Part shown: positions 8,842 to 43,479 of the stretch, piece after piece
Position numbering within the stretch: position 1 is the first letter of the stretch
Layout of the letters: every line of letters begins with the position of its first letter
Assembly: GCA_003223555.1 (NCBI GenBank)
Contig: QHVM01000023.1
Location: 1,912-65,911 of the forward strand
Length of the DNA: 64,000 nt
Reading direction: 5' to 3'
Source of the DNA: Acidobacteriota bacterium
Lineage (GTDB): Bacteria > Acidobacteriota > Vicinamibacteria > Fen-336
Position numbers and translations under genes: made by a program
Notes under the pieces: generated by a model
The model's input: the letters and a program-made list of their open reading frames with translations, nothing else
What the model was told of the DNA's origin: nothing
Databases searched by the model: none

Positions 8842-9858
8842 TCAGGAGGTCAGGAGCTTGATGGCCAGCCGCTTCCCGAGCCGGAAGGCGTCGGGGATCC
8901 GCGTCTCGATGAACATCACCACGCGGTTCACCCGCCGGTTCTGGTCCTTCGGGTGGTTCACGGGGATACCGTTGACCTCCCGCAGCCGAAGCGGCTTCTC
9001 GATCGTCTGATACTGGAGAAACGGCCGCGATGCCGGGATGAAGTGGGCGGTGAGGGAGCTGCGCGACGCGCGCGGCTGCACGGTCGGCAGGCTGCCGTGG
9101 ATGGTCCTGGAGTTCCAGAACATCACGTCGCCCCGGCGCAGGGCGGGAGCGTGGCACTCGAGGCCGTGACTCTGGATGAGGTCCAGGACCAGCCGCTTAT
9201 AGCGGTCGTGGTGGAAGGCGATGTCGAAGTCACCGCCGTTCCTGGCCATGTCGATGCGGTGGCTTCGCGGGTAGACGTAGAAGCGCCCCGCGCCCGGCTC
9301 GATGTCCTCCAGCGCGATCCAGGCCCCGACCATGCGTCCGATGTCGGCCGAATCGAGGTAGTAGGTGTCCTGGTGGGCCCAGGTGGACGGGTTGCCCTCG
9401 AAGTACATGCTCTGCACGAGCACGCCCCGCTCTCCGAGAAGACTCTCCACCGCGGCCTGGAGGCGGCGGTCGGTGATCACGGCCAGCGAGGCGGCGCGGA
9501 AGCTCGGGAAGCGGCTCGCGTCGAGGTCCTGGACGTTCAGGATGGAGTTGAGGACGTGGCCGCCCTCGGTCAGCACGTGGCGCTCGGGGTTCCCGCTCGC
9601 CTGCCGGTACAGGAAGCCGGAGTAGGGTTTCACCTCCCGGACGAAGGCGGCTTTCGCTTCTCCGCACCGCGCATCGTCGACGAGCCCGCGCCAGACGACA
9701 TAGCCGTGCTGCTCGTAGTACGCGCGGTGGCCGGCGGGGTCCAGGCGAAGGTAGGGATCCGAGCCGTCCTCGACCGCCACCGGGACCGCGATCGGCTTGC
9801 CTTCCGGGGCGGTGATCGTGAACAGCTTCTCGCAGGCCAGGCCGTCGAGGGCGGTCAT
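8842..9858 (-). CDS. phytanoyl-CoA dioxygenase (PhyH) family Fe(II)/2-oxoglutarate-dependent oxygenase
   Basis: HQDTYYLDS ... GRFYVYPRSHR (HxD...H facial triad context of PhyH family); start set to MTALDG to remove a Pro/Arg-rich N-terminal extension. Confidence 0.7.
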   Translation of the reverse strand: MTALDGLACEKLFTITAPEGKPIAVPVAVEDGSDPYLRLDPAGHRAYYEQHGYVVWRGLVDDARCGEAKAAFVREVKPYSGFLYRQASGNPERHVLTEGGHVLNSILNVQDLDASRFPSFRAASLAVITDRRLQAAVESLLGERGVLVQSMYFEGNPSTWAHQDTYYLDSADIGRMVGAWIALEDIEPGAGRFYVYPRSHRIDMARNGGDFDIAFHHDRYKRLVLDLIQSHGLECHAPALRRGDVMFWNSRTIHGSLPTVQPRASRSSLTAHFIPASRPFLQYQTIEKPLRLREVNGIPVNHPKDQNRRVNRVVMFIETRIPDAFRLGKRLAIKLLTS

Positions 9859-9901
9859 CGAGCCCAATACTGACACAGCGTCCGCGCGCGTCAACCGCGC
9901 C

Positions 9902-10846
9902 TCACCGCCGCTCCAGCCAAATCGAGGAGGGGAAATGATGGTGGGGATCGAAGCGCGCGTCGCGGAGGCCGTCGGTGAAGGAGGCCGGCACGTAATCCGG
10001 GAAGGCCTCCTTGAGCGCCTCGGGGCGCGCATGGTGGAGGTGGCTCAGGCAGAAGAGGATGCGCGTGCGGCGGTTCTCGATGAGGAACGCCTGGAGGAAG
10101 GCGGTCTCGTTCGAGTGGAAGAACGACTCGAGGGCGTTGGTCTGGTAGGTGTAGGGCATGTAGATGTCGTGGAAGTGGACGAGCACGCCGGGGCCCAGCC
10201 GGGGGAGCACCTCGAGGAGCAGGAACTCCGTGTCGCTCCCCGTCTTGACGACGTGGCTCGAATCGATGAACAAGATGTCCGCCGGCCCCAGGGTGGCGAA
10301 CTCGCCTGGGCCCACGCTCTGCACCGGAAGGTCCAACAGCTCCACCGCGGAGCCGCGGGCGGCCAGCTCCCGCAGCGGCCGGGACGGCGCAGGCTCGACG
10401 CAGGTGATGCGGCAGGCTCGTCCGCTCTCCCGCTGGTTCGCCTCCGCCGCCCGATGAGCGCAGAAGGTGGAGACACCGCTGCCGACCTCCAGGATCCGGG
10501 CCGGCTTGTAGTGACGGACCACCGCGTGCAGGGCCTGCGCCTCGACGAAGCCGAAGCCGGGGCCGTACCCGTCCCTGACGCCGCGCAGGTAGTTCCCGTT
10601 GTCCCGGTACTCCTCGCGCAAGGGCAGGCAGATGCGCCGCAGGTTCCGGACCTGCTCCTCGAGGTCGACCTCGATCCCGGCGAGCGCGGAAGGCCGCGCC
10701 CATCGCTCCCGGGTCCGGTCCAGCTCCAGGACGTCCGGCACGGGCGAGTAATAGTGGACGGGCAGGACGTGGACGCCGAGCCGCGCCGCCTGGCGGTGGA
10801 CGAGGAAGAACAGGCGCTTCAGCAGGTTCTTGACCGCTCGGCGCAT
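9902..10846 (-). CDS. class I SAM-dependent methyltransferase (TylF/MycF-like O-methyltransferase)
   Basis: ILEVGSGVSTFCA ... ILFIDSSHVV motifs; real protein begins at MRRAVKNLLKRL, preceded by ~250 aa of spurious Pro/Arg/Gly-rich ORF. Confidence 0.7.
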   Translation of the reverse strand: MRRAVKNLLKRLFFLVHRQAARLGVHVLPVHYYSPVPDVLELDRTRERWARPSALAGIEVDLEEQVRNLRRICLPLREEYRDNGNYLRGVRDGYGPGFGFVEAQALHAVVRHYKPARILEVGSGVSTFCAHRAAEANQRESGRACRITCVEPAPSRPLRELAARGSAVELLDLPVQSVGPGEFATLGPADILFIDSSHVVKTGSDTEFLLLEVLPRLGPGVLVHFHDIYMPYTYQTNALESFFHSNETAFLQAFLIENRRTRILFCLSHLHHARPEALKEAFPDYVPASFTDGLRDARFDPHHHFPSSIWLERR

Positions 10847-11682
10847 CAGATCGTGAGCCCCCGGGCCCGGCGGGCCGACTCCTTCATCTTGAGGGTGACC
10901 AGGTACTCGTATTGCGAGAGCAGGCGGCAGTAGGTCAGGCCCGGCCAGCCGTCGAGGAACCCGCGGCGCAGCACGTACATGTAGAGGAAGCGCAAGGTGG
11001 GGCGGCACGGCGCGCGCCAGGACAGCTCCTTCATCAGGCGCCGGCGCTTCACCGGGTCGCGGAACGCGAGGCCGTCGCGCCACGGGATGCCCCCCGTGGA
11101 GAGGGTCTTGAGGTTCTCCTCCGCCTCCATCTCGGCGTAACGGGCGTGCTTGTGCAGCCAGTCGCTCAGCCCCTTGTGGAAGCCATGGTGGGCCAGGTGG
11201 CCGCGCAGCTCGCCGGCCGGGCCCTCGAACTCGGGGTACTCGTGGACGGCGCGAGCGCCATAGCGGACCCGCTCGGGCCGGAAGAAGCGGAGGAACCAGG
11301 AGGGGTAGAGGCCCGCATGCCGGAGCCAGCGCCCCCAGAAGTACTCCTTCCGCCGCAGCCGGTAGACCCACGGCGGCCCCTCCCCCGCCCGGGCGATCGA
11401 CTCGATCTCGGGGACGAGGTCCGCCTCCACCGTCTCGTCGGCGTCCACCGCCAGCACCCAGCGGTGGCGGTACGCCACCCCGGTGCGCGCCGCCTCCCTT
11501 TGTTCGCCGTAACCCAGGAAGGCGTGCTGGTACACGCGGGCTCCCCCCGCGCGCGCCAGATCCACGGTGTGGTCTTTGCTGAAGGAGTCGAACACCACCA
11601 CGTCGTCGCTCCACCGCACCGACTCCAGGCAGCGCGGCAGGTTCTTCTCCTCGTCGCGGGTGAGGATGAGGACGGAGATCAC
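10846..11682 (-). CDS. family 2 glycosyltransferase (GT-A fold)
   Basis: VISVLILTRDEEKNLPRCLESV...DDVVVFDSFSKDHT; GTG start in a GTGA overlap with the upstream gene's stop. Confidence 0.65.
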   Translation of the reverse strand: MISVLILTRDEEKNLPRCLESVRWSDDVVVFDSFSKDHTVDLARAGGARVYQHAFLGYGEQREAARTGVAYRHRWVLAVDADETVEADLVPEIESIARAGEGPPWVYRLRRKEYFWGRWLRHAGLYPSWFLRFFRPERVRYGARAVHEYPEFEGPAGELRGHLAHHGFHKGLSDWLHKHARYAEMEAEENLKTLSTGGIPWRDGLAFRDPVKRRRLMKELSWRAPCRPTLRFLYMYVLRRGFLDGWPGLTYCRLLSQYEYLVTLKMKESARRARGLTI

Positions 11683-12221
11683 GAGCGGCGGATCTCCCGC
11701 TTCTTCAGGAAGCGGGCCGGGTTGCCCCCGACCACCGTCCACGGCTCGACGTCCTTCACCACGCAGGCGCGGGCGGCGACGACGGCGCCCTCCCCGACGA
11801 CCACCCCGGGGCCGACGAAGACGTCGGCCGCGATCCACGCGCTCGCCCCGATGGTGATGGGGGCCTTGACGAGGGGCAGGCTCGCCCGCCGGTGATCGTG
11901 GGAGGCGGCGCACAGCCAGGTGTACTGGCTCACCAGGGCATGGGACCCGAGCTTGATCCGGTCCGCGGAGTAACACTCCACGTCACGACCGAGGCAGGCG
12001 TACTCCCCCATCTCCAGGTTCCAGGGGGCCCAGATCCGCACCGAGGGGTAGACGTAGGCGCCCTTGGCGATGCGGGCCCCGAATAGCCGCAGCCACAGGC
12101 GACGCCAGCCCCACAGGGGCCGCGGACTGAAGCGGCAGAAGAGCCACCAGGCCACGCTCCAGAACAGACGGCCGGCGCGGTTGCCGAGGGTGTGCGGGCT
12201 CGGGCAGTCGGTGAGGTCCAT
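11679..12221 (-). CDS. WcaF-like hexapeptide-repeat sugar O-acetyltransferase
   Basis: MDLTDCPSP...RLFWSVAWWLF...WRRLWLRLFGARIAKGAYVYPSVRIWAPWNLEMG...LCAASHD matches the colanic-acid acetyltransferase WcaF family throughout. Confidence 0.75.
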   Translation of the reverse strand: MDLTDCPSPHTLGNRAGRLFWSVAWWLFCRFSPRPLWGWRRLWLRLFGARIAKGAYVYPSVRIWAPWNLEMGEYACLGRDVECYSADRIKLGSHALVSQYTWLCAASHDHRRASLPLVKAPITIGASAWIAADVFVGPGVVVGEGAVVAARACVVKDVEPWTVVGGNPARFLKKREIRRS

Positions 12222-12238
12222 CCCCTCCCGGGGCTCGG

Positions 12239-13090
12239 TCACGGTCGCACCCGGCAGTAGACCTCGAACTCCGTGCCCAGCCCCGCGAGATCCATGGCGC
12301 GTGCGGGAGCCCAGGCCAGCGGGGCGAAGACGCGCGCCGCCGCGCGCGCCCAGGAGGATTCCCCCGCGACGTACTTGCGGAAGCCGCGGGCGAGCTGCTC
12401 CATCCCCAGGCCGGAGAAGCTCGTCCACGCGGTCACGGGGAGGTCCGCCCGCCGGAGCAGGCTCCACAGGCCGGGCTTGCTGAAGAGGGTCAGGTGCTGG
12501 GGCGGGTTGATCATCGGGAAGCGCCGGCCCAGGACGCGGGCGGGCACGCCGCTGAGGCTGGGGGTCGAGAAGGCCACGACGCCCTGCGGCCGCACGAAGG
12601 CCTGCATGCGGACGAGCTCGGGTCCCGGCTCGGGAAGGTGCTCGAGCACTTCCCAGAGCACGACCGCATCGTAGCGAACCGGGGGAACAGGCATCTGCTG
12701 GATCCAGCACCGGTGGACCCGATGGCCCTTCGCCTCGGCGACCGCGGCCGCCGGGCCCGGTTCCACGCCCTCGGCCTCGAGCCCCTGCTCCCGGAGCGCG
12801 TCGAGGAACTCGCCGGCCCCGCAGCCCACCTCCAGGATCCGCCGCGCCCCCAGGCCGGCCAGCGTCCGGGCCCGATGGCGGGCCCGGCGGACGGGGAGCT
12901 CTCCGAGAAGCTCGTCCGGGCCGGCGTCCGGCTCGAGAGCATACATCCCGGCCAGCAGCGCTTCGTCGGGCTTCGGATCGACGAAGAGCGTCCGGCAGTC
13001 TGGGCAGCGGACCATCCAGAAGCCGTCGACGTCGAAGGCCCTCCGGCCGCGGCGGCCTTGGCAGGCCGGGCAGGCGCGGCACTCGGTCAC
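12239..13090 (-). CDS. class I SAM-dependent methyltransferase with N-terminal zinc ribbon
   Basis: CRACPAC...VRCPDCRTLF zinc ribbon, then ILEVGCGAGEF...VVLWEVLEHL; GTG start in a GTGA overlap. Confidence 0.7.
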   Translation of the reverse strand: MTECRACPACQGRRGRRAFDVDGFWMVRCPDCRTLFVDPKPDEALLAGMYALEPDAGPDELLGELPVRRARHRARTLAGLGARRILEVGCGAGEFLDALREQGLEAEGVEPGPAAAVAEAKGHRVHRCWIQQMPVPPVRYDAVVLWEVLEHLPEPGPELVRMQAFVRPQGVVAFSTPSLSGVPARVLGRRFPMINPPQHLTLFSKPGLWSLLRRADLPVTAWTSFSGLGMEQLARGFRKYVAGESSWARAAARVFAPLAWAPARAMDLAGLGTEFEVYCRVRP

Positions 13091-14262
13091 GGGGCTCCTC
13101 CCCCGACCAGCCCGCGGTAGGCGGCGGCCAGCTCGCCCGCCGCTCGCTCCCAGGAGAAACGGCTGGCCAGGCGCGCGCACCCGGCCGCATAGGCCTCCCG
13201 CGGGACGGCCAGGACCTCGCCGATCCGGGCGGCCACGGAGCGCGTGTCGAGCCCGGCCACCGCGCCGGCGCCGGCCGCCTCCACTTCGGAATGGAGCGCC
13301 ACGCCGCGGGAGACCACCACCGGCGTCCCCGCCGCCGCCGCCTCGAGCACGACGACGCCGAAGTTCTCATCGAAGGATGGAAGCGCGAGGCAGCGCGCCC
13401 CGGCGAGGAGGCGTCCCTTCGTTTCTCCCGTCACGAGCCCCGTGAAGTGCACCGCATCGGCGATGCCGAAGCGCCGGGCCGCTTCGACCAGCGGCTGCTG
13501 CATGCCTTCGTCGGGGCCCGCGAGGACAAGCTGCAGGCCGGGGCGGTCGCGCACGAGCTCGGCGAAGGCGGAGAGGAGCAGGTCGAGGCCCTTCTTGCGG
13601 TGCAGACGCCCGAGGAAGAGAACGTAGAGCCGGGGAGGCTCGAACCTCCGCGCCGGGGCATCGTCGACGTGGTTCGACCGCGCTCCGGAGGGCTCCTCCG
13701 CCTCGACGCCAAGCGGGATCACCCGCGTCCGGGCGCGCGGCTGGATGCGCCGGACGTCCTCGGCCTCGGCCTCCGAGGTGCAGTGGACGAAGGCGGCCGA
13801 GCGCAGCAGCCGCCTCACGATCAGGAGGAAGGGCCGCTTCAACGAGGATCCCTGGGCGAGACACCACGGGGCGAAGACGCCGCACGGCCGCATCACGTAG
13901 GGACGCTCGAGCACCAGACGCGCGGCATCGCTGGTGGCCGTGACGAAGGTGAAGATGCCGTGGCTGTGGACGACGTCGAACTCGTCACGCCGGCGCCACA
14001 CCGCGGCGGTCAGCTCGGGAGCGACCAGGCGGCGCCGGAGCGGCGCCAGGGCCGGCGCGCGGAAGTAGGTCACGCGCACTCCCGCCTCCTCGACCATGTG
14101 GGTCGGCCCGGAGCCGTCGGTCTCGGCGTCGCCGACGGTGAAGACCGACACCTCGAAGCCGGGCTGGCGGGCCAGGGCCCGGGCCAGGGGCAGCATGGAC
14201 ACCGAGGGCCCGCCGAACCGGTGCTGTAGCGAGGCCAGGACGTGGAGGATGCGGACCGTCAC
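13087..14262 (-). CDS. GT4 family glycosyltransferase
   Basis: VRILHVLASL... ; LFLGRLHRKKGLDLL...ALPSFDENFGVVVLEAAAAGTPVV (Glycos_transf_1); GTG start in a GTGA overlap with the asnB stop; ~490 aa of upstream ORF is Pro/Arg/Gly junk. Confidence 0.75.
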   Translation of the reverse strand: MTVRILHVLASLQHRFGGPSVSMLPLARALARQPGFEVSVFTVGDAETDGSGPTHMVEEAGVRVTYFRAPALAPLRRRLVAPELTAAVWRRRDEFDVVHSHGIFTFVTATSDAARLVLERPYVMRPCGVFAPWCLAQGSSLKRPFLLIVRRLLRSAAFVHCTSEAEAEDVRRIQPRARTRVIPLGVEAEEPSGARSNHVDDAPARRFEPPRLYVLFLGRLHRKKGLDLLLSAFAELVRDRPGLQLVLAGPDEGMQQPLVEAARRFGIADAVHFTGLVTGETKGRLLAGARCLALPSFDENFGVVVLEAAAAGTPVVVSRGVALHSEVEAAGAGAVAGLDTRSVAARIGEVLAVPREAYAAGCARLASRFSWERAAGELAAAYRGLVGGGAP

Positions 14263-16133
14263 CGCACGTCTCCCAGAAGCCGCTCCAGGACGATCAGCGA
14301 CCAGGCCCGCGACCAGTGCACCCGCCCCGAGGCGACGCCATCGAAGATGCGCGCGACCGCCGCGGTGGCGCCGGCCGAAAGCAGCCACCCCGGCAATTCG
14401 AGAGCGCGCCCGCGCTCGTGATCGCTCCCCACCCATCGCTGCAGCGGAAGAGTGAAGCCGGTCTTTCTCCGGTGGAGGAGGTGCGGCGGCAGCGCCGGGC
14501 GGGGCGCCCGGCCCAACGGGAGCTTGCCCAGTCGGCCGCGCCACGCCGCCAGCACGGGACCGAGGCTCTCGGTCAGGTGCGCGCTCACGAGAGGGACCCG
14601 GACCTCGAGCGAGTGCGCCATGGAGGCCCAGTCCGCGTCGCGCAGGAGCTGGTTGCGCATGTACAGGCTCTGCTCGGCGGTGGCCACCTCCGCCCACGGT
14701 CCGGCCGGACGCGGCTGGAGGGCTTCGGTCACCGGCCGGTCGATGACCGCCTCGACCCGTCCCGCCTGCCAGAGGTCGGGAGACAGTAACTGCCGGATCT
14801 CGCGGGGAGTGAACAGGCCGCGCAGCAGATGGTAAGTGGTCGCCGGCCGGGCGACGGCACGGCCCAGGTAGCGGATCTTCTCCCGCCGGCGCTTCATGAT
14901 CCGCCCCAGGCCCGCCAAGGCGAGGTCGGCCCCGGGCAGCCGGCCCAGGAAACCCACCCGTCGCAGCCGCGGGTAGGACCGGTAGGAGGGATAGGTGCCG
15001 AACAGCTCGTCGCCCCCCAGACCCGAGAGGGCGACCTTCAGCCCCGCCTGCTTCACCGCCCACGAGACCCAGTACACGTTGAGGCCGTCGACACTCGGCT
15101 GATCCATCGCCGACAGGAAGCAGTCCATGGCCGAGCGGACATCGTCCCAGGACACCGTCAGGGTGGTGTGGCGGGTTCCGAAATGACGCGCGACCTCCTC
15201 GGCGTCGGGCGCCTCGTCCTCCGCTCGGCCGCGGAACTCCCCGAAGCCCAGCGTCACCGTGCGGATCGGCTCGGGATGGGCCCGCGACGCGAGCCCGACG
15301 AGGACCGCCGAGTCGAGCCCTCCCGAGAGGAACGCTCCGACCGGCACGTCGGCCACAAGGTGCAGGCGCACGCTGTCGCGGACCTGGGCTTCCACCTGCC
15401 GGTCCACCTCGCTCGGCGGCAGCGGTTCCGCCCGGGTCGCGTAGACCTCGGCCACGGACCAATAGCGCCGGGGCGACCCGACCTCGCCCTCCTTCACCTG
15501 CAGCGTGCAGCCGGCGGGAAGGGATCGGACGCGCCGGAAGAGCGTGGCCGGCTCGGGGACGCTGCCCCAGGCGAGAAAGCCGAGCACCCCTTCCGGATCG
15601 ACGTCGCGCGACACCCGGCCCCCGCGCACGAGGGCCCGCACCGAGGAGGCGAAGCGAAAGGTCCCGCCCTCGTCGCAGTAGTAGAGAGGCTTGATGCCGT
15701 GAGGGTCCCGGGCCAGGGTGAGGACGCAGCTCTCGCGGTCCCACAGGGCGAAGGCGAACATTCCCCGGAGCCTTCGCATGCCGTCGACCCCTTCCGTCCG
15801 GTAGAGCTGGAGGAGAACCTCGGTGTCGCTCTCGGTGCGGAAGCCGGCATTCGGGCGCAGCTCCTCCCGCAACTGCCGATAGTTGTAGATCTCGCCGTTG
15901 AAGACGATCACGGCGTCTCCCCCCTCGCTCGTCATGGGCTGGGCGGCCGCCTCGCTCAGGTCGATGATCGACAAGCGGCGGTGGCCGAGGAGCAGCCGCC
16001 CTTCGGGATCACGGTAGAGGCCGTGACCATCGGGACCCCGGGCCGTCATGGCGTCGCGCACGGCGACGCACTCTTCCGGGTCGGGGAGCGGGGCCCCGGG
16101 AGCGAAGGCGTAGATGCCGTTGATGGCGCACAT
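14259..16133 (-). CDS. asnB: asparagine synthase (glutamine-hydrolysing) family amidotransferase
   Basis: MCAINGIYAF (N-terminal Cys nucleophile) ... SGGLDSAVLV (PP-loop) ... full-length AsnB architecture. Confidence 0.85.
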   Translation of the reverse strand: MCAINGIYAFAPGAPLPDPEECVAVRDAMTARGPDGHGLYRDPEGRLLLGHRRLSIIDLSEAAAQPMTSEGGDAVIVFNGEIYNYRQLREELRPNAGFRTESDTEVLLQLYRTEGVDGMRRLRGMFAFALWDRESCVLTLARDPHGIKPLYYCDEGGTFRFASSVRALVRGGRVSRDVDPEGVLGFLAWGSVPEPATLFRRVRSLPAGCTLQVKEGEVGSPRRYWSVAEVYATRAEPLPPSEVDRQVEAQVRDSVRLHLVADVPVGAFLSGGLDSAVLVGLASRAHPEPIRTVTLGFGEFRGRAEDEAPDAEEVARHFGTRHTTLTVSWDDVRSAMDCFLSAMDQPSVDGLNVYWVSWAVKQAGLKVALSGLGGDELFGTYPSYRSYPRLRRVGFLGRLPGADLALAGLGRIMKRRREKIRYLGRAVARPATTYHLLRGLFTPREIRQLLSPDLWQAGRVEAVIDRPVTEALQPRPAGPWAEVATAEQSLYMRNQLLRDADWASMAHSLEVRVPLVSAHLTESLGPVLAAWRGRLGKLPLGRAPRPALPPHLLHRRKTGFTLPLQRWVGSDHERGRALELPGWLLSAGATAAVARIFDGVASGRVHWSRAWSLIVLERLLGDVR

Positions 16134-16138
16134 CCGGA

Positions 16139-18118: not shown

Positions 18119-18134
18119 CGCGGTCCTGCGTGCC

Positions 18135-20293: not shown

Positions 20294-21186
20294 CCCTGGA
20301 GCCCCCGTTCCCGGTAACAGGGCGAGGACTCGAAGTGGGCGTGCATGAGTCCGATCAGCTCCGCCCAGGCGGGGGGCTCGTAACCGGTCGCTTCACGAAA
20401 GCGCGACGAGTCGAGGGTCCGGTCGATGCGGCAGCCGTCATCCGGCACGATCTCGATCCCGTGGCCATATTGGCCGGCAATCAGCCGGAGCAGATCGCAC
20501 TTCGACACGGGGCTCGACGAGACGTGGTAGACGCCGCGCATGTCGATCCGCGCCAGGACGTGCTCGTCGATGATGCGCGCCAGCTCCACGCTGGGAAACC
20601 CCGAGAAGATCGCCCCGGTGAAGCCCCGGACCGGCCCGGGCTGGGAGAGGAACCACTCTACGAGGCCGTACCGGTCGCGCAGCTCGTGACCGATGAAAGA
20701 CGTCCGGAGCGTGATGCCGTCAGCGGCCGCGAGCTCACCCAGGACCTTCGTGCGTCCGTAGAGATCGACGGCATCGGGAATATCGTTCTCAGTATACTTC
20801 CCGGCCGCGCCGTCGAAGACGCAGTCGGTGCTGACGTGCACCAGGCGGCCCCCCACCGCCGCGCACAGGCGAGCCAGCTGGTGGGGAAACAGCGCATTGA
20901 GGCTGATCGCGGCCACCGGGTCGGCCGCCGAAGGCCTCTGCTTGACGAGGCCGATGCAGTTGACCACGACGTCGGGCCGGAAGGACTCGAGGACCGCGGC
21001 CACGGTCTGGATGCGCTCGGCATCGACTCCGGGGACGACCTGCTCGCGGAGAGCACGGGGAAGCAGACGGTCCAACCCGTCCTCGGCGCGGGCCGTCGCC
21101 CGGACGTCGTGACGTCCACCCTGGTGGAGGCGCTCGAGTAGGACGTGTCCGAGCATTCCGGTCGCGCCCAGGACGAGGACCCTCAT
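20290..21186 (-). CDS. RmlD-like SDR reductase (dTDP-4-dehydrorhamnose reductase family; WbvR-like)
   Basis: MRVLVLGATGMLGHVL...VVNCIGLVK...YGRTKVLGE; starts at the ATG at 21186 (ATGA overlap); upstream part of the ORF is junk. Confidence 0.75.
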   Translation of the reverse strand: MRVLVLGATGMLGHVLLERLHQGGRHDVRATARAEDGLDRLLPRALREQVVPGVDAERIQTVAAVLESFRPDVVVNCIGLVKQRPSAADPVAAISLNALFPHQLARLCAAVGGRLVHVSTDCVFDGAAGKYTENDIPDAVDLYGRTKVLGELAAADGITLRTSFIGHELRDRYGLVEWFLSQPGPVRGFTGAIFSGFPSVELARIIDEHVLARIDMRGVYHVSSSPVSKCDLLRLIAGQYGHGIEIVPDDGCRIDRTLDSSRFREATGYEPPAWAELIGLMHAHFESSPCYRERGLQG

Positions 21187-21863
21187 CCCCGGCGCCTTTC
21201 CGCGGCGGCATAGAGGCGGCCGACCACGCGCTGGAACTGCCGCAAGACGAAGGACGCCATCCGACCCGGACGGCCGGGATCCGCCACGGTCTTGATGGCC
21301 CAGAGGGCCCCGAAGGCCTCTTCGAGGGGACGCCCCATGTTGTCCGCGATATGGAAGGCCCGGGCGGCGTAGATCTGCCAGGACGAGTCGAAGTCTTCGG
21401 GTCCCCACCCCGACCGGTGCTCCTGCCAACGTCCTCCGTCGAGCCCCCAGGCGTCCTTGCCGTCCGGATGATGCTGGGGCAGGAAGCCGAGGGGCGTGAA
21501 GATCACGACCTGGCGTCTCACCAGCGGCTCGGTGGCCGCGAGCAGCCGGCGTGCCTCCTCCTTCTCCAGGTGCTCGATGACGTCCACCAGGAAAACCGTG
21601 TCCACGGACCGCGGAGGGAACAGCTCGAGGGCCTGGGCCCACGTCGCCTTCAGCACGACGAAGGTCCGGTCCTGGCGGCAGCGGACCTTGCCCTGGAGGA
21701 CCTCGACGTACTGCTCGAAGGGCTCGCAGCAGATGTGCACGAGCGGGCGCAGGTACGGCTGGGGCATGATCCCGCAGCCGATGTCCAGGACGACCGGCAC
21801 CGGCTCGAGGGCCTTGCGCAAGGCGGGCAGCATCTCCTCGGCGGTCAGCCAGGTCAGGCCCAC
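21183..21863 (-). CDS. class I SAM-dependent methyltransferase
   Basis: VLDIGCGIMP ... VDTVFLVDVIEHL; lies immediately downstream of wzt. Confidence 0.6.
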   Translation of the reverse strand: MGLTWLTAEEMLPALRKALEPVPVVLDIGCGIMPQPYLRPLVHICCEPFEQYVEVLQGKVRCRQDRTFVVLKATWAQALELFPPRSVDTVFLVDVIEHLEKEEARRLLAATEPLVRRQVVIFTPLGFLPQHHPDGKDAWGLDGGRWQEHRSGWGPEDFDSSWQIYAARAFHIADNMGRPLEEAFGALWAIKTVADPGRPGRMASFVLRQFQRVVGRLYAAAERRRG

Positions 21864-21897
21864 GCGGGTTCCCGACGGCGGCCGGGGCCGCGAGCCC

Positions 21898-23169
21898 TCA
21901 CCGGGACACCGTCCGCCACTCGAGCAGGGGCCTGACCACGCCGCCGAAGCGGCCGAAGTAGTCCTTCCGCACCGCGGGGCTGTCGAGCACCTCGATCCTC
22001 AGGACGTCGCGGGTCATGGTCCCGTCCACGAACCCCTTGCCGAAGAGGTTGACGGCCAGGCTGAACCAGCCGTCGTTCAGGAAGTTCGCGGGGACGCGGC
22101 AGGAGCTACGGTACTCCCCGGACGGCATCGGACGACCGTACCAGCACGATTCGTGGTTGTTGATGGAGGAGAACACGATGTTCTGCTCGTCGTCGAAGAG
22201 GATCGCCGTCAGTCCCACGTAGGTCCCGGGAGTCGTGACCCGGAAGTCGATGTCCACGTCGAAAGCGGTGTCGGTATGGACCTGGGACAGCGCTTCTCCG
22301 TCCACGCCGCGGAGGGTGATCCGGGAGAGGATCGCGGAGGCGTTCCGGGGGGCCGCCCGCTCATCCGGCCATTCGCGGGACAGGACGGCGGTGCCGGCCT
22401 CGCCCAAGTACCGGGAGACGACCTCGCTGGCCGACCCCGCGGCGACCAGCGAGCCGCCCCGGAGAAGCAGCGCCCGGTCGCACAGCGTCCGCACCGCGCT
22501 CATGTTGTGGCTCACGAACAGCACGGTCCGCCCTTCGCGCCCCACCGATTCCATCCGACCCAGGCACTTCCGCTGGAACGCCGCGTCCCCGACCGCCAGG
22601 ACCTCGTCCACCACCAGGATGTCCGGCTCCAGGTGCGCGGCCACCGCGAAGGCCAGCCGCACGTACATGCCCGAGGAGTACCTCTTGACCGGCGTGTCCA
22701 GGAAGCGCTCGACCTCCGCGAAGGCGACGATCTCGTCGAAGCGTCTCTTGATGTCCGCCCGCCGCATGCCCAGGATGGCGCCGTTCAAGAAGATGTTCTC
22801 CCGGCCCGTCAGCTCCGGATGAAAGCCGGTCCCCACCTCGAGCAGGCTGGCCAGGCGGCCGCGCAGGGTCAGCCGCCCTTCCGAGGGCTCCGTGATGCGG
22901 CTCATGAGCTTGAGCAGCGTGGACTTGCCGGCTCCGTTGGGCCCGATGATGCCGATGCGCTCGCCCGGCGCGACGTGGAACGAGACCTTCTCGAGGGCGT
23001 AGAACTCCTCGCGTCCCGCCATCCCCCGGTCGAGCCTCCGCCCCCGCAGCCTCGCCGCCAGCCGCCGCGCGCGCACGGCCAGATCGTCCCGCAGCGTGAG
23101 GTAGCGCTCGGGATGCTGGTGGCGCAGGACGTATTTCTTAGAGAGCTTCTCGGCGATGATCGCGGACAT
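21898..23169 (-). CDS. wzt: polysaccharide ABC transporter ATP-binding protein (Wzt-like) with C-terminal glycan-binding extension
   Basis: GIIGPNGAGKSTLLK (Walker A), YSSGMYVRLAFA (signature), ILVVDEVL (Walker B), plus a ~180-aa C-terminal beta-rich domain; start taken at MSAIIAEKL. Confidence 0.85.
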   Translation of the reverse strand: MSAIIAEKLSKKYVLRHQHPERYLTLRDDLAVRARRLAARLRGRRLDRGMAGREEFYALEKVSFHVAPGERIGIIGPNGAGKSTLLKLMSRITEPSEGRLTLRGRLASLLEVGTGFHPELTGRENIFLNGAILGMRRADIKRRFDEIVAFAEVERFLDTPVKRYSSGMYVRLAFAVAAHLEPDILVVDEVLAVGDAAFQRKCLGRMESVGREGRTVLFVSHNMSAVRTLCDRALLLRGGSLVAAGSASEVVSRYLGEAGTAVLSREWPDERAAPRNASAILSRITLRGVDGEALSQVHTDTAFDVDIDFRVTTPGTYVGLTAILFDDEQNIVFSSINNHESCWYGRPMPSGEYRSSCRVPANFLNDGWFSLAVNLFGKGFVDGTMTRDVLRIEVLDSPAVRKDYFGRFGGVVRPLLEWRTVSR

Positions 23170-23229
23170 GGAATCGGGGCGGGCACGGCAACGCCGAGCG
23201 GGGGGCATCTTGCGGTCGCCCGGCCGCGA

Positions 23230-24099
23230 TCAGATCACGTCCGCGAAGCTCCGCTCGGCCTTCCGGAAATACCATAGCCCGGAGATCACCAGGAGGGCCA
23301 CCACCGTCGCCGCCAGGAAGAGGCCGCTCCAGTATAGCGTAAACGCCCGGCCGAGGATCGCCCACCGGAAGCCGTCGATCACGCCCACCAGCGGGTTGAG
23401 CGAGTAGAGCAGGCGCCAGCGCGCCGGGACCACGTCGCTCGAGAACCCGACCGGCGAGACGTAGAGCCCGAACTGCACCACGAAGGGAACGATGTACGTG
23501 AAGTCGCGGTACTTCACCGTCAGGGCCGAGAACCAGAGTCCGCCGCCCACCGCGGTCGCCGCGGCCAGCAGCACGAAAAGGGGCAGGGCGGCCAGCCGCA
23601 CGGTCGGCAGCACTCCGTACCAGGCCATCAGGCCGGCGAGCAGCGCCAGCGACATCAGGAAGTCGACGAAGCTCACCACGACGGCGCCGATGGGTATCAC
23701 CATCCGGGGGAAGAACACCTTCGAGACCATGGACGCGTTGGCGAGCAGGCTGGCGCTGCTGCCGGCCAGGGCGCTGGCGAAGAACTGCCAGGGCAGTAGG
23801 GCGGCGAAGACGAGGACCGGGTACGGCACCCCGTTCGACGGCAGCCTGGCGATGCGGCCGAAGACGACGGTGAAGACGAGCATGGTGGCCAGCGGGCGCA
23901 CGAGGGCCCATGCCACGCCGATGGCGGCCTGCTTGTACTGGACCGTGACGTCCCGCCAGGCCAGGAAGTAGAACAGCTCCCGGTAGCGCCAGAGATCTCT
24001 CAGGTACTGGCCGGCCGGTCGACCGGCCTCGATCACGAGCAGCTCTGTGGGCGCCTCCGGCGAGGCGGTCCGGCCGGTCGCCTCGGCGGGCGCCGCCAC
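23230..24099 (-). CDS. wzm: ABC-2 type polysaccharide exporter permease (Wzm-like)
   Basis: ...YLRDLWRYRELFYFLAWRDVTVQYKQAAIGVAWALVRPL... plus 6 TM segments; GTG start at 24099 (an alternative GTG lies at 24036). Confidence 0.75.
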   Translation of the reverse strand: MAAPAEATGRTASPEAPTELLVIEAGRPAGQYLRDLWRYRELFYFLAWRDVTVQYKQAAIGVAWALVRPLATMLVFTVVFGRIARLPSNGVPYPVLVFAALLPWQFFASALAGSSASLLANASMVSKVFFPRMVIPIGAVVVSFVDFLMSLALLAGLMAWYGVLPTVRLAALPLFVLLAAATAVGGGLWFSALTVKYRDFTYIVPFVVQFGLYVSPVGFSSDVVPARWRLLYSLNPLVGVIDGFRWAILGRAFTLYWSGLFLAATVVALLVISGLWYFRKAERSFADVI

Positions 24100-24101
24100 G
24101 G

Positions 24102-25127
24102 CTAGCTCACCGAGGGCGGCGGAGGGGCCGGATCGCTCACGTCGATCGCCGAGGCTCGTCCGCCGGCGAGCCGGGCGAGCCGCTGCGCCACCCGCAACAG
24201 GCGGTCGAGGAGCGGCGAGTTGAGGCGGCGCGCCCGGACCTGGAGCGCTCGCGCCCATCCGGCATCCGGCACGGCGAGGGCGTTGCGAAAGGCCTCGTCG
24301 GCATAGGTGTGCGCGCCGAAGCTCCGGTAGAGGTCGCCCATCCAGATCCAGGCGTCGGCCGGCCCGGTTCCGCCGTCCGCCAGGCCCGGGAAGAAGCCCC
24401 GCACCGACAGGTGGTCGTGGACGACGTCCATGAGGAGGCGAATGTCCCGGCGGACCTGTCCGGCCTCGGTCTCCGTGCCGCGCGCCGGATGGACCCGCTT
24501 GAATGTGACCGCCCGCGGGCTCAGGAGGAAGGGGAATGCCGCCGACAGGCGCAGCGTCATCTCCACGTCCTGGGTCGTCCGGTTGGCCTCGTTGAACGGG
24601 CCCACGCGCGCGAAGCAGGACCGGTGGATGGTCATCGCGCACATGTCGACGCCCCCCAGACGCAGCGCGTCCCGCGGGTTCGTGACCCGGTCGACCGGGT
24701 AGACCGGCTCCCGGATGACGTTTCCCGCGCCGTCGATGACCTTGATCGGGCAGAACAACACGCGGGCCTCGGGCCGTTCCGCCGCGGCGATCATGTCCTG
24801 CTCGATGCGGTCGGCAGCGAACCGGTCGTCGTGGCTCAGCCAGGCGAACCACTCGCCGGTCATCTCCCGCAGCCCGTGGTTCAGCGCGGTGGACACGCCG
24901 CCGTTGGGCTTCCGGAAGCGGCGGACCCGGTCGCCGTACGACCGGATGATGGCGTCGGTCCGGCCTCCGTCGTCGGATCCGTCGTCGACGACGATGACCT
25001 CGGTGCGCCCGTAGGTCTGCTGCAGCGCGCTGTCGACCGCCTCGCGCAGGTAGTTCGAGCCGTTGTACACCGGGATCACGATCGACACGACCGGCGATCG
25101 CGACGAGGCGCGGGCGCCGCCCGTCAC
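24102..25127 (-). CDS. family 2 glycosyltransferase
   Basis: PVVSIVIPVYNGSNYLREAVDSALQQTY...EVIVVDDGSDDG; GTG start in a GTGA overlap. Confidence 0.75.
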   Translation of the reverse strand: MTGGARASSRSPVVSIVIPVYNGSNYLREAVDSALQQTYGRTEVIVVDDGSDDGGRTDAIIRSYGDRVRRFRKPNGGVSTALNHGLREMTGEWFAWLSHDDRFAADRIEQDMIAAAERPEARVLFCPIKVIDGAGNVIREPVYPVDRVTNPRDALRLGGVDMCAMTIHRSCFARVGPFNEANRTTQDVEMTLRLSAAFPFLLSPRAVTFKRVHPARGTETEAGQVRRDIRLLMDVVHDHLSVRGFFPGLADGGTGPADAWIWMGDLYRSFGAHTYADEAFRNALAVPDAGWARALQVRARRLNSPLLDRLLRVAQRLARLAGGRASAIDVSDPAPPPPSVS

Positions 25128-25780
25128 TTCACTCCCTGGGCGTAGAGTGACTCGTAGCGGCGCTCCGGCTGATCCAGGGCGGGGTCGAAGGGCCGCAGGC
25201 GCACCTCCCTGAGGCCGATCTGCCCGAGCAGGGCCAGGATGCTCTCCTCGTCGAACATGTGGCGGTGCTCGCCGTCCATGTAGAACATGTAGTTCACGTA
25301 GTCGATCGGCGTACGGAGCGACAGCCCCGTGTCGTAGGTGCAGTAGGTCCGGGCGTCGAACGTCTCCGGGTGGGCATAGGCCTCGAGGTAGATCCTCGCG
25401 TTGGGGACGGCCAGGCTGAAGACCCCGTTCGGCTTGAGCGTCCGGTAGCAATCCCGCAGGAGCGCCACGAGGTCGGGGTACCGGAAGTGCTCCAGGACGT
25501 GCTCGGAATAGATGAGGTCGAGCGACTCGTCGGGGAAGGGCAGGCCCAGGCGCAGATCATAGGGGAAGTCGGTGCGGAAGCTGAGGTCGGAGGTGATGAA
25601 GCCCTCCTTGGTCTTGACCCCTCCGGGGCCGATCTCCAGCCGGTTGACCCGGCGCTTGTCGAAGAAAAGCCGGGCCTTGACGAGCCCGACCAGGGAGCAG
25701 AGGTGGGTCCGGGCTTCCGCCCGAACGAGGGCGCAGCTCTCGCGAAGCCGGCCGGGATACCGGGAACGCATCTGGACCGT
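25124..25780 (-). CDS. class I SAM-dependent methyltransferase; first gene of the long operon
   Basis: ...LEIGPGG...LIYSEHVLEHF...LKPNGVFSLAVP; begins at MRSRYPGRL; the preceding ~525 aa of ORF is antisense junk of asnB2. Confidence 0.65.
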   Translation of the reverse strand, partial: TVQMRSRYPGRLRESCALVRAEARTHLCSLVGLVKARLFFDKRRVNRLEIGPGGVKTKEGFITSDLSFRTDFPYDLRLGLPFPDESLDLIYSEHVLEHFRYPDLVALLRDCYRTLKPNGVFSLAVPNARIYLEAYAHPETFDARTYCTYDTGLSLRTPIDYVNYMFYMDGEHRHMFDEESILALLGQIGLREVRLRPFDPALDQPERRYESLYAQGVK

Positions 25781-25879
25781 TCCTGCCGCCGCTGGCGCCG
25801 GCACGATTGTCCTAGAATAGCGTTTCGTCGTCCAACGCGGGAACGGCGCGGATGCCGTGCTCGCCCGGGGCCCCTGCGC

Positions 25880-36998: not shown

Positions 36999-37377
36999 CG
37001 CTGGCGCCGCCGGCCGTCCGAAGGGAGGACCACTCATGGCGACGGCTCCCGACGAGACCCTCTGGAGCCTCATTGAGTCGCGCGATCGCGCGTTCGCGAA
37101 GGCCCACGAGGCCTTTCAATCGTTGACGTGGCAGGCGGGCCAGAAGGACGAGGAGATCGCCCGGCTCAAGCAGGAGGCCGACCGCAAGGACGAGGAGATC
37201 CATATGCTGACCCGGTCGGCCGACGAGTGGCAGGTCCTCGTCCGGGAACTGGAGGCTTCCTGGGAATACAAGCTGGGCCTGATGCTCCTGCACCCGTGGG
37301 CCGTGGTGAGGCAGAAGGTCTCCGCGGACCCTCAGCGCACCCGCCACTTCCGCCCCACCCAGAACAGCCGCAGGTAG
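36988..37377 (+). CDS. small coiled-coil protein, tandem paralog B
   Basis: MPGDAG...TLWSLIESRDRAFAKAH...KDEEIARLKQEADRKDEEIHMLTRSADE...EYKLGLMLLHPWAVVRQKV; conserved relative to A. Confidence 0.5.
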   Translation: MPGDAGAAGRPKGGPLMATAPDETLWSLIESRDRAFAKAHEAFQSLTWQAGQKDEEIARLKQEADRKDEEIHMLTRSADEWQVLVRELEASWEYKLGLMLLHPWAVVRQKVSADPQRTRHFRPTQNSRR

Positions 37378-40107: not shown

Positions 40108-40131
40108 GCCGTCTCCGGGCGCGCCGCCGCC

Positions 40132-43454: not shown

Positions 43455-43479
43455 CAGCCTCGAGCCTGGAACGAGTGAC

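What the first reader, a model, noticed from the sequence alone, without database searches (positions are those of the whole stretch)
8842..25780. 17-gene minus-strand glycan operon with near-universal 4-nt NTGA start/stop overlaps, including TTG and CTG starts
From the methyltransferase at 25780 down to the PhyH gene at 8842, most junctions are overlaps in which the start codon shares nucleotides with the upstream TGA. I count ATGA at 20293 and 21186, GTGA at 25127, 14262, 13090 and 11682, TTGA at 19217, and TGATG at 10846. The same pattern recurs elsewhere in the window: GTGA at 44061 and 28208; TTGA at 47589 and 38108; CTGA at 39124 and 57949; ATGA at 7927, 51913, 61457 and 63501. This implies tight translational coupling. 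It also implies genuine use of TTG, and probably CTG, as initiation codons at coupled junctions, which standard gene callers tend to mis-start. Several supplied ORFs in fact carry hundreds of codons of spurious Pro/Arg/Gly-rich N-terminal extension.
Basis: seen in the sequence. Interest (0 to 1): 0.6.

Follow-up and report, generated by a model that had tools for sequence, protein, structure and literature searches.

The report
Stop-start overlaps in a glycan operon
The stop/start overlaps in this soil acidobacterium's sugar-polymer operon are the ordinary, well-known way bacteria couple translation of neighbouring genes. The TTG starts are real, but only one gene outside the operon (RNase D) has a well-supported case for the rare CTG start, and public annotation truncates that gene.

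Summary
The overlaps exist, with corrections. The operon has 16 genes, not 17. It starts at ATG 25771, not 25780. Of its 15 junctions, 8 are -4 overlaps (GTGA 12242 was missed), 1 is a -1 overlap (TGATG 10846) and 6 are gaps of 2-60 nt. Position 63501 is GTGA, not ATGA. At the window's 18 -4 junctions the shared base is A5/G8/T3/C2, against a third-codon-position background of A 3.5%, C 49%, G 43%, T 4%. That bias shows selection for start-codon function.

All three TTG starts (19217, 38108, 47589) coincide with conserved homolog N-termini, and existing gene calls already use TTG at these junctions. No CTG inside the operon is a start: the AsnB homologue begins ATG-TGC at 16133.

Outside the operon, the RNase D gene has no in-frame ATG/GTG/TTG before its catalytic ExoI motif. 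CTG 57949 overlaps the mazG stop, and the same CTGA junction recurs in several related lineages. NCBI annotates this protein as a truncated 307-aa product. CTG 39124 aligns with relatives' GTG/ATG starts but has canonical alternatives nearby.

Overall this is known termination-reinitiation architecture. The recurrent CTGA junction at rnd is the only mildly novel element.

The parts
25124..25771 (-). Gene P: SAM methyltransferase, 215 aa. First gene of the operon, starting at ATG 25771. A divergent AsnB-like gene begins at 25871 on the + strand.
   Evidence: Pfam Methyltransf_11/23. The only candidate starts are ATG 25771 and GTG 25804. Gene call of 215 aa.
24102..25127 (-). Gene O: GT2 glycosyltransferase, 341 aa. 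GTG start inside GTGA at 25127 (-4 overlap with P).
23230..24099 (-). Gene N: ABC-2 (Wzm-like) permease, 289 aa. GTG 24099, 2 nt after the TAG stop of O.
21898..23208 (-). Gene M: ABC ATPase (Wzt-like). Start ATG 23208, or ATG 23169 as in the gene call; gap of 21 or 60 nt.
21183..21863 (-). Gene L: weak methyltransferase-like, 226 aa. GTG 21863 after a 34-nt gap.
20290..21186 (-). Gene K: RmlD-like reductase, 298 aa. ATGA at 21186.
   Evidence: Pfam RmlD_sub_bind profile position 1 aligns to residue 1, MRVLVLGATG.
19214..20293 (-). Gene J: FnlA/CapE-like 4,6-dehydratase (Polysacc_synt_2), 359 aa. ATGA at 20293. Its last codon, CGT, supplies the T of the next gene's TTG.
18135..19217 (-). Gene I: FnlC/WbvD-like UDP-GlcNAc 2-epimerase-family protein, 360 aa. 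TTG start inside TTGA at 19217.
   Evidence: There is no other ATG/GTG/TTG within -200/+260 nt. Homolog N-termini M/V/L-K-[VI]-[ML]-T-x-LGTRPE align to residue 1 in about 70 genomes. In 61 of 69 of these the start overlaps the FnlA-like stop by 4 nt. The gene call already uses TTG.
16139..18118 (-). Gene H: GT2-GT4 fusion glycosyltransferase, 659 aa. ATG 18118 after a 16-nt gap. The CTGA at 18138 is out of frame.
14259..16133 (-). Gene G: AsnB-type glutamine amidotransferase, 624 aa. Starts ATG-TGC (Met-Cys) at 16133, 5 nt after the stop of H. The in-frame CTG at 16142 is not the start.
   Evidence: Pfam GATase_7 + Asn_synthase. Sequence TGA TCCGG ATG TGC. Gene call of 624 aa. That class II amidotransferases need an N-terminal Cys is established knowledge.
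13087..14262 (-). Gene F: GT4 glycosyltransferase, 391 aa. GTGA at 14262; N-terminus VTVRILHV.
12239..13090 (-). Gene E: methyltransferase with an N-terminal CxxC...CxxC motif, 283 aa. GTGA at 13090, with GGGGGAGGAG 5 nt upstream.
   Evidence: The first CxxC lies upstream of the alternative ATG 13015.
11679..12242 (-). Gene D: hexapeptide acyltransferase. GTGA at 12242 (187 aa), or ATG 12221 (180 aa). Not resolved.
   Evidence: The two gene calls differ between near-identical strains.
10846..11682 (-). Gene C: GT2 glycosyltransferase, 278 aa. GTGA at 11682.
   Evidence: The Pfam GT2 profile starts at residue 3.
9902..10846 (-). Gene B: Methyltransf_24, 314 aa. ATG in TGATG (-1 overlap) at 10846.
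8842..9894 (-). Gene A: PhyH-family dioxygenase, the last gene. Start TTG 9894 (350 aa) or ATG 9858 (338 aa). The ATG 10032 ORF is a spurious extension.
   Evidence: The PhyH profile starts at residue 106 of the 10032 ORF. The coding-potential boundary is at 9858. Gene calls of 350 and 338 aa.
37332..38108 (-). GT2 gene with a TTG start inside TTGA at 38108.
   Evidence: Relative L167 also has TTGA at this junction, with N-terminus L-S-Q-A against L-T-Q-A in the window, and is called from TTG. The only downstream canonical start, ATG 37982, lies after the VLVPLLNE motif.
38105..39124 (-). NAD-dependent sugar epimerase. CTG inside CTGA at 39124 is the position homologous to relatives' starts. 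Alternatives are GTG 39109 and GTG 39163.
   Evidence: Most of the closest relatives (75-83% identity) are 339 aa, starting [MV][TSK][AE]R..VTG. L167 and L168 have GTGA at the junction. The NCBI call starts at GTG 39163, 352 aa.
46147..47589 (-). Conserved membrane protein of unknown function, 480 aa. TTG start inside TTGA at 47589.
   Evidence: Alignment A1: the N-terminus MILRxGELLxLPPGVPD is conserved from residue 1 down to 46% identity. Relatives start with ATG, TTG or GTG.
57143..57952 (+). mazG (NTP pyrophosphohydrolase). Its last codon CGC plus the TGA stop form the CTGA junction.
   Evidence: Pfam MazG. Sequence.
57949..59097 (+). rnd (RNase D: DEDDy exonuclease + HRDC). Most likely initiated at CTG 57949, or at CTG 57955.
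   Evidence: There is no in-frame ATG/GTG/TTG from 57787 to 58174, which lies beyond the ExoI DxE motif. GGAG lies 6 nt upstream. The protein aligns to E. coli RNase D from chain residue 7. Relatives have N = A, G, T or C at the same junction.
7927..8802 (+). One of the other -4 and -1 overlap junctions in the window. -4 overlaps: ATGA 7927, GTGA 28208, GTGA 44061, ATGA 51913, ATGA 61457, GTGA 63501. -1 overlap: TGATG 42237.

Best explanation
What it is. The region is an ordinary ABC-transporter-dependent cell-surface glycan operon. It comes from an uncultured, roughly 70% G+C soil acidobacterium whose closest named relatives are Vicinamibacteria MAGs. It has 16 co-directional genes:
- a Wzm/Wzt-like exporter;
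- four glycosyltransferases;
- four methyltransferases;
- an FnlA/RmlD-like/FnlC-type trio for a UDP-2-acetamido-2,6-dideoxy-L-hexose;
- an AsnB-type amidotransferase, an acyltransferase and a PhyH dioxygenase.

How it works. Its stop/start overlaps are the standard prokaryotic architecture for translational coupling by termination-reinitiation. A ribosome finishing the upstream gene at UGA restarts on the overlapping NUG. It is often helped by a Shine-Dalgarno-like stretch inside the upstream gene. That the overlapping NTGs are the starts is shown here by comparative evidence. That coupling actually occurs is inferred from published work on such pairs.

What sets the start codon. The shared base N is the third base of the upstream gene's last sense codon, so an upstream-synonymous change sets the downstream start codon. 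At the FnlA/FnlC junction, CGA gives ATG, CGG gives GTG and CGT gives TTG.

TTG and CTG starts. The three TTG starts (19217, 38108, 47589) are genuine. No CTG in the operon is a start. Outside the operon, rnd (RNase D) is most likely initiated at the CUG of the mazG-rnd CUGA junction at 57949. This is a weak start, made usable by coupling and an upstream GGAG. CTG 39124 is only possible.
For: Gene map and functions.

Junction strings and frames.

Selection on N: A5 G8 T3 C2 against a GC3 background. At the FnlA/FnlC junction, 61 of 69 diverse genomes keep the -4 overlap. Last-codon|start pairs are CGA/AGA|ATG 48, other NNA codons|ATG 7, CGG|GTG 5, GCT|TTG 1, and CTG 0. Of the 10 loci with at least 60% G+C, 8 use ATG and 2 use GTG.

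TTG starts.

rnd:
- No canonical start lies before ExoI.
- Relatives of 371-393 aa carry the full N-terminus.
- The mazG-rnd junction is NTGA in most relatives, with all four bases.
- CTGA-only cases are the window/L087, L095, L137 and L170, in at least three different junction registers.
- Codons 11-75 have dN/dS of 0.13-0.23, against 0.23-0.36 for the rest of the gene (comparisons with relatives at 70% identity or more), at dS of 0.6-1.0.
- The protein aligns to E. coli RNase D from chain residue 7, with the DxE motif at query residues 34-36.
- E. coli rnd itself is annotated with a TTG start.

Literature: -4 overlaps are the commonest configuration and are translationally coupled (PMC6728339, PMC10666635). 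An SD sequence enhances reinitiation (PMC2268962).
Against: There are no expression, ribosome-profiling or N-terminal protein data for this uncultured organism, so coupling and the CUG start are both inferred.

CUG is a very poor initiator in model bacteria. Ribo-RET in high-GC M. tuberculosis showed no CTG enrichment at initiation sites (PMC9094748).

At the rnd junction, C is about as frequent among relatives as the GC3 background predicts (14 of 29 loci, not independent). N may therefore be unconstrained there. Several CTGA relatives have a possible canonical alternative: GTG at +3 after the conserved W, GTG at -45, or GTG at -159.

Six of the 15 operon junctions are not overlaps. The starts of genes D, M and A remain ambiguous. 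Apart from the J/I junction, no operon junction could be tested by synteny, because the nearest genomes found are only 60-71% identical on gene J and taxonomically scattered.
Confidence: 0.8

Rival explanations
1. The NTGA overlaps are coincidental strings. The real starts are internal ATG/GTG codons downstream, so there is no special coupling architecture.
For: This is true for some CTGA strings: 16142 (real start ATG 16133), and 18138 and 23233 (out of frame). D (ATG 12221) and the epimerase (GTG 39109) have plausible downstream alternatives. An MK or MR N-terminus creates ATGA automatically.
Against: Homolog N-termini begin at the junction for I, K, C, F, the 47589 gene, the 38108 gene and the 39124 gene. 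The upstream FnlA-like stop really is that TGA in 61 of 69 genomes. N is strongly biased towards A and T and away from C relative to GC3. For several genes the next canonical start would delete conserved motifs.
Confidence: 0.05
2. The window's rnd is a decaying or N-terminally truncated gene, translated from GTG 58174 as annotated by NCBI. It makes an ExoI-less protein or none, and CTG is not used.
For: NCBI and Prodigal-type calls give 307 aa. CUG is a very weak initiator in model bacteria.
Against: The 75 codons upstream of GTG 58174 are an intact ORF encoding the catalytic DxE motif and the first strands of the DEDD domain. They show stronger purifying selection than the rest of the gene. 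The same situation recurs in several diverged lineages and independent assemblies, so it is not a one-off lesion or an assembly error. L087 is a 99.7% identical independent contig with the same CTGA.
Confidence: 0.1
3. rnd is expressed by another route. One is a MazG-RNase D fusion through -1 frameshifting at the last mazG codon. Another is initiation at a far-upstream or non-NTG codon, such as GTG at -159 in relatives or ATC 57796 in the window.
For: The rnd frame is -1 relative to mazG and stays open for 160 nt or more upstream. GTG at -159 is conserved in many relatives.
Against: There is no slippery X XXY YYZ motif, and the codons before the stop vary (GGA CGC, GAG CGC, GGC CGC, GGG AGC). 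The window has no GTG at -159. The open upstream frame is expected by chance at 70% G+C. Relatives with ATGA, GTGA or TTGA show that the junction codon is the ancestral start.
Confidence: 0.07
4. At 39124 the CTG is a dead ancestral start, and the epimerase now starts at GTG 39109 (334 aa) or GTG 39163 (352 aa).
For: Both are canonical and in frame. Relatives carry an ATG at the position of 39109, and gene callers sometimes choose it (334-aa calls). NCBI chose 39163.
Against: Starting at 39109 removes the conserved basic/hydrophobic residues before VTG that are present in all homologs down to 60% identity. The 39163 extension is not conserved, and in L168 an in-frame stop 12 nt upstream of the junction blocks any such extension.
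Confidence: 0.6

Closest known systems
Termination-reinitiation (TeRe) translational coupling at -4 (ATGA/GTGA) and -1 (TGATG/TAATG) stop-start overlaps (Huber et al. 2019, PMC6728339; PMC10666635)
   Same: Co-directional operon genes whose start codon shares bases with the upstream UGA. The -4 class dominates and the -1 class is second. Remaining gaps are mostly short. SD-like stretches lie inside the upstream gene.
   Different: Nothing essential differs for the operon. The literature usually lists only ATGA and GTGA. Here TTGA is used three times in 64 kb, and CTGA is the only available start for one gene.
UDP-2-acetamido-2,6-dideoxy-L-hexose pathways: FnlA/FnlB/FnlC (L-FucNAc), WbvB/WbvR/WbvD (L-QuiNAc), CapE/F/G. 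Named from the analyst's own knowledge.
   Same: A Polysacc_synt_2 dehydratase, an RmlD-like reductase and a non-hydrolysing 2-epimerase lie adjacent. The dehydratase-epimerase -4 overlap is conserved in 61 of 69 genomes across bacteria and archaea.
   Different: The reductase precedes the dehydratase and is the short RmlD type (298 aa), so it resembles WbvR more than FnlB. The sugar produced was not determined. The start codon is TTG rather than the usual ATG.
E. coli rnd (RNase D), translated from a UUG start
   Same: Same enzyme family (1yt3, E = 1e-33) and a weak non-AUG start codon. RefSeq annotates TTG for E. coli K-12 rnd.
   Different: E. coli rnd is not overlapped with mazG and uses UUG. 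Here the start is CUG (UUG, GUG or AUG in relatives), embedded in the mazG stop.
Rare non-canonical bacterial start codons (AUU of infC; CUG allowed in translation table 11)
   Same: A near-cognate codon would be read by the initiator tRNA, giving low expression.
   Different: For infC the weak codon is a proven regulatory device. Here neither use of the codon nor regulation is demonstrated.

Membership tests
-4/-1 stop-start overlap gene pairs (TeRe coupling) | Co-directional genes in which the downstream start codon NTG is in frame and shares TG(A) with the upstream stop | tested here: met
   There are 8 -4 and 1 -1 junctions in the operon, and 18 -4 and 2 -1 in the window.
-4/-1 stop-start overlap gene pairs (TeRe coupling) | The junction codon is the true start: the conserved N-terminus of homologs coincides with it | tested here: met
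   Shown for 19217, 21186, 14262, 11682, 38108, 47589 and 39124 (position only). Not resolved for 12242. The remaining junctions rest only on start-candidate geometry and coding potential.
-4/-1 stop-start overlap gene pairs (TeRe coupling) | Downstream translation depends on upstream translation reaching the overlap | not testable with these tools
   This needs reporter fusions with a premature stop in the upstream gene.
ABC-transporter-dependent glycan (O-antigen-type) cluster | Adjacent ABC-2 permease and ABC ATPase, with glycosyltransferases and sugar-nucleotide genes in one operon | tested here: met
   Pfam ABC2_membrane, ABC_tran, GT2 x3 and GT4 x2 domains, Polysacc_synt_2, RmlD_sub_bind, Epimerase_2.
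ABC-transporter-dependent glycan (O-antigen-type) cluster | The product is exported and attached to a defined acceptor (lipid A-core or other) | not testable with these tools
   No ligase or acceptor could be assigned. The organism is uncultured.
RNase D (DEDDy 3'-5' exonuclease + HRDC) | All Exo motifs, including ExoI DxE, plus HRDC domain(s) | tested here: met
   Met only if translation starts upstream of 58045. Pfam DNA_pol_A_exo1 + HRDC are precomputed for homologs. Alignment to 1yt3 places DxE at residues 34-36 of the CTG-initiated product. The 307-aa annotated product lacks it.
CTG-initiated bacterial gene | No canonical in-frame start is compatible with the conserved protein, and the CTG sits at the position of orthologs' canonical starts with an SD at proper spacing | tested here: met
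   Met for rnd 57949. For 39124 the position matches, but canonical alternatives exist, so the result there is inconclusive.
CTG-initiated bacterial gene | Experimentally determined N-terminus (fMet or Met at the CTG) | not testable with these tools
   No proteomic or Ribo-seq data exist for this organism.

The most novel reading that the evidence does not exclude
CUG is a persistent, functional initiation codon at -4 (CUGA) junctions in Vicinamibacteria-type Acidobacteriota. At the mazG-rnd junction it is the only possible start in several diverged lineages (window/L087, L095, L137, L170), in at least three junction registers. The N-terminal coding region stays under strong purifying selection. 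This implies that termination-reinitiation relaxes start-codon stringency to any NUG. In GC-rich genomes, mutation pressure on the upstream gene's last codon (CGC) can then set a very weak downstream start. That may be tolerated or favoured for a low-abundance enzyme, paralleling the UUG start of E. coli rnd. Gene callers that ignore CTG, such as Prodigal, then systematically truncate or mis-extend such genes.
Probability: 0.5. Interest if true: 0.55.

Novelty: new member of a known kind. Interest (0 to 1): 0.33.

Why it matters
For the operon the practical value is a corrected gene map and the confirmation that TTG starts at -4 overlaps are reliable.

The useful by-product concerns annotation. 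At CTGA junctions in GC-rich genomes, current pipelines give wrong N-termini. RNase D is annotated without its catalytic ExoI motif, and the epimerase is annotated with a non-conserved extension.

If CUG reinitiation is real and recurrent, it offers a natural test bed for how far termination-reinitiation relaxes start-codon selection. It would also illustrate how upstream-synonymous mutation pressure tunes downstream expression.

Tried and rejected
- Near-identical metagenome contigs (L001-L006, 99.8-99.99% identical) were fetched in the hope of comparative signal. They are too similar to be informative, apart from showing existing gene calls.
- The genome-collection scan with gene J found only 60-71% identical, taxonomically scattered loci. 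These were excellent for the J/I junction, but the other operon junctions could not be tested by synteny.
- I first favoured GTG 47559 over TTG 47589 because of a strong GGGGGAG 7 nt upstream. Alignment A1 refuted this: residues 1-10 are conserved.
- CTG 16142 was rejected because the AsnB homologue must start Met-Cys, at ATG 16133. The CTGA strings at 18138 and 23233 and the GTGA at 21901 were rejected as out of frame.
- An automated survey of NTGA junctions in 359 kb of related high-GC loci gave a contaminated background, because truncated loci leave downstream genes unrecognised. Most of its 'CTGA' hits were really TGATG. Only its third-position composition and the CTG-only cases were used.
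- Frameshift fusion was considered and rejected, because no slippery site is conserved.
- A literature search did not retrieve a paper documenting the E. coli rnd UUG start. I checked the RefSeq annotation directly instead.
- DNA for P0084 and P0141 could not be fetched.

Full report
**Source and gene map.**
The window is about 70% G+C throughout, so the longest ORFs are unreliable. I mapped genes three ways: third-position G+C, a codon log-odds model trained on the operon, and Pfam.

Between 8842 and 25771 there are 16 minus-strand genes, labelled P to A:
- P, methyltransferase;
- O, GT2 glycosyltransferase;
- N and M, Wzm/Wzt-like ABC-2 permease and ATPase;
- L, methyltransferase-like;
- K, RmlD-like reductase;
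- J, FnlA/CapE-like dehydratase;
- I, FnlC-like 2-epimerase;
- H, GT2-GT4 fusion;
- G, AsnB-type amidotransferase;
- F, GT4 glycosyltransferase;
- E, methyltransferase;
- D, hexapeptide acyltransferase;
- C, GT2 glycosyltransferase;
- B, Methyltransf_24;
- A, PhyH dioxygenase.

A divergent AsnB-like gene starts at 25871 on the + strand, so P is the first gene of the operon. Exact-protein look-up shows the same locus, 99.8-99.99% identical, in several soil metagenome assemblies. NCBI holds it as an 'Acidobacteria bacterium' MAG, and the nearest named relatives are Vicinamibacteria MAGs.

**Checking the observation.**
A further GTGA at 12242 was missed.

The 15 operon junctions break down as follows:
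- 8 are -4 overlaps: 25127, 21186, 20293, 19217, 14262, 13090, 12242, 11682.
- 1 is a -1 overlap: TGATG at 10846.
- 6 are gaps of 2, 5, 16, 21 or 60, 34, and 7 or 43 nt.

'Most junctions overlap' is therefore correct, but 'near-universal' and '17 genes' are not. The first gene starts at ATG 25771, and nothing at 25780 is a start codon. The PhyH ORF beginning at 10032 is a spurious extension.

Elsewhere in the window all quoted strings exist, except that 63501 is GTGA rather than ATGA.

It is a plain consequence of the scarcity of stop codons at 70% G+C.

**More than chance?**
The shared base N is the third base of the upstream gene's last sense codon. Third positions in these genes are A 3.5%, C 48.9%, G 43.2% and T 4.4%. 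At the window's 18 -4 junctions N is A5, G8, T3, C2. A+T enrichment has p = 3e-5 and C depletion has p = 9e-4. The junction base is therefore selected to make a usable start codon.

The same signal shows across phyla at the J/I junction. In 61 of 69 genomes carrying both genes, the epimerase start overlaps the FnlA-like stop by 4 nt. The last-codon|start pairs are:
- CGA|ATG 32
- AGA|ATG 16
- CGG|GTG 5
- GCA, AAA, CCA or TCA|ATG 7
- GCT|TTG 1
- no CTG at all

ATG predominates even in loci with at least 60% G+C (8 ATG, 2 GTG of 10).

**TTG starts.**
- 19217: this is the only ATG/GTG/TTG within -200/+260 nt. It gives MKVLTLLGTRPE, which aligns from residue 1 with about 70 homologs.
- 38108: a relative about 80% identical (L167) has TTGA at the same junction and a conserved [L/M]-[S/T]-Q-A N-terminus. 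The next canonical start would delete the first GT2 motif.
- 47589: homologs down to 46% identity conserve MILRxGELLxLPPGVPD from residue 1, and they start with ATG, TTG or GTG. This overturned my own SD-based preference for GTG 47559.

Existing annotations already use TTG at these junctions (for 19217; P0241, for 47589; the relative L167's call, for the 38108 junction). The claim that gene callers mis-start them is therefore not supported.

**CTG inside the operon.**
None is a start. The in-frame CTG at 16142 is followed 9 nt later by ATG-TGC. An AsnB-type class II amidotransferase needs the Met-Cys N-terminus (established knowledge), and the gene call is 624 aa. The CTGA strings at 18138 and 23233 are out of frame.

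**CTG at 57949 (mazG-rnd).**
This is the one finding of interest.
- In the rnd frame there is no ATG, GTG or TTG from the preceding in-frame stop (57784-57786) to GTG 58174. That codon lies beyond the ExoI motif ALDTESD. The only NTG codons are CTG 57913, 57949 and 57955.
- CTG 57949 overlaps the mazG TGA and has GGAG 6 nt upstream.
- The NCBI protein for this locus is a 307-aa product starting at 58174 and lacking ExoI. Relatives 75-80% identical are 371-393 aa.
- The CTG-initiated product aligns with E. coli RNase D (1yt3) from chain residue 7, with DxE at residues 34-36.
- In 80 related metagenome loci, the mazG-rnd junction is usually a -4 overlap and uses all four bases:
  - ATGA: L113, L157.
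  - GTGA: L096/097, L102, L125, L127, L128.
  - TTGA: L101, L103, L104/153, L136/140.
  - CTGA: window/L087 in one register, and L090-L095, L100, L108, L109, L126, L134, L150 in another.
- L095, L137 and L170, like the window, have no reasonable canonical alternative.
- Codons 11-75, upstream of any canonical start in the window, have dN/dS of 0.13-0.23 against relatives. The rest of the gene has 0.23-0.36 for relatives at least 70% identical. dS is 0.6-1.0.

Caveats:
- Some CTGA relatives have GTG at +3, -45 or -159.
- C at this junction is about as common as GC3 predicts.
- CUG is a very poor initiator in model systems.
- Ribo-RET in M. tuberculosis saw no CTG enrichment.

Prodigal never considers CTG, which explains the scattered N-termini called for close relatives. 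E. coli rnd is itself annotated with a TTG start, so weak starts on rnd are not unprecedented.

**CTG at 39124.**
Most of the closest homologs are 339 aa and begin [M/V][T/S/K][A/E]R..VTG, exactly aligned with the CTG. Two relatives have GTGA at this junction.

The window also has GTG 39109, 5 codons downstream and aligned with an ATG in relatives. It has GTG 39163 as well, which is NCBI's choice. That extension is not conserved, and in L168 an in-frame stop upstream of the junction blocks it. The start is unresolved.

**Mechanism.**
Shown here:
- The junction NTGs are the evolutionarily conserved start positions.
- N is under selection.
- An upstream-synonymous third base sets the downstream start codon.

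Inferred from the literature:
- Ribosomes terminating at the overlapping UGA reinitiate on the NUG, helped by an intragenic SD (PMC6728339, PMC10666635, PMC2268962, PMC3592434).

Inferred with moderate confidence:
- The same route lets a CUG serve at the mazG-rnd junction.

**Comparison and verdict.**
The operon is a routine member of the ABC-transporter-dependent glycan clusters. Its overlaps are a routine instance of -4/-1 coupling, the commonest arrangement of unidirectional gene pairs in prokaryotes. The TTG usage is correct but already handled by gene callers. The only element beyond the known is the recurrent CTGA junction at rnd, together with the resulting mis-annotation. It is worth a small follow-up, and it is not a new kind of system.

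Noticed in passing
window 57949-59097 (+): NCBI's annotation of this exact RNase D (P0001, 'MAG: 3'-5' exonuclease') is truncated to 307 aa from GTG 58174 and lacks the catalytic ExoI DxE motif. Calls for close relatives scatter between 306 and 393 aa for the same reason.
   Followed up: yes
L007-L086 (FnlA/FnlC-type loci in bacteria and archaea): The -4 overlap between the FnlA-like dehydratase and the FnlC-like 2-epimerase is conserved in 61 of 69 genomes from many phyla, including methanogens. The dehydratase's last codon is nearly always NNA (CGA or AGA), even in GC-rich genomes, which preserves an ATG start for the epimerase.
   Followed up: yes
L169 7990-7992 (E. coli K-12 rnd, NC_000913.3): E. 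coli rnd is annotated with a TTG start codon, so a weak start on RNase D is shared between E. coli and this acidobacterial clade.
   Followed up: partly
window 55443-55526 (+): A single tRNA gene, tRNA-Leu(CAA), lies about 1.6 kb upstream of mazG.
   Followed up: no
window 37332-49328 (-): A second glycan cluster with its own -4/-1 overlaps at 38108, 39124, 42237, 44061 and 47589. It holds several GT2 and one GT4 glycosyltransferases, two NAD-dependent epimerases/dehydratases, a hexapeptide acetyltransferase and a GFO/IDH/MocA oxidoreductase. It also holds a conserved 480-aa membrane protein with no Pfam hit on record (46147-47589) and a 580-aa protein with no Pfam match (47586-49328).
   Followed up: partly
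window 25871-27751 (+) and 14259-16133 (-): There are two AsnB-type glutamine amidotransferase genes: one inside the operon and one divergently transcribed from its promoter region.
   Followed up: no
window 11679-12242 (-); L001 and L003: Gene calls for the hexapeptide acyltransferase differ between near-identical strains: 187 aa from GTG 12242 against 180 aa from ATG 12221. The ATG is directly preceded by GGGAGGGG. The start is unresolved.
   Followed up: partly
window 51149-51913 (-): The gene starting at the ATGA junction 51913 has the N-terminus MKLQGSLVERDFPELIH. From memory this resembles the DUF4388/PatA-type N-terminus. It was not checked against Pfam.
   Followed up: no
window 9214-30289; L001-L006: The same locus occurs at 99.8-99.99% identity in at least five different soil or critical-zone metagenome assemblies (ENA ERZ27315255, ERZ28573528/30/40; JGI 3300009137). 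This points to a widespread, nearly clonal population.
   Followed up: partly
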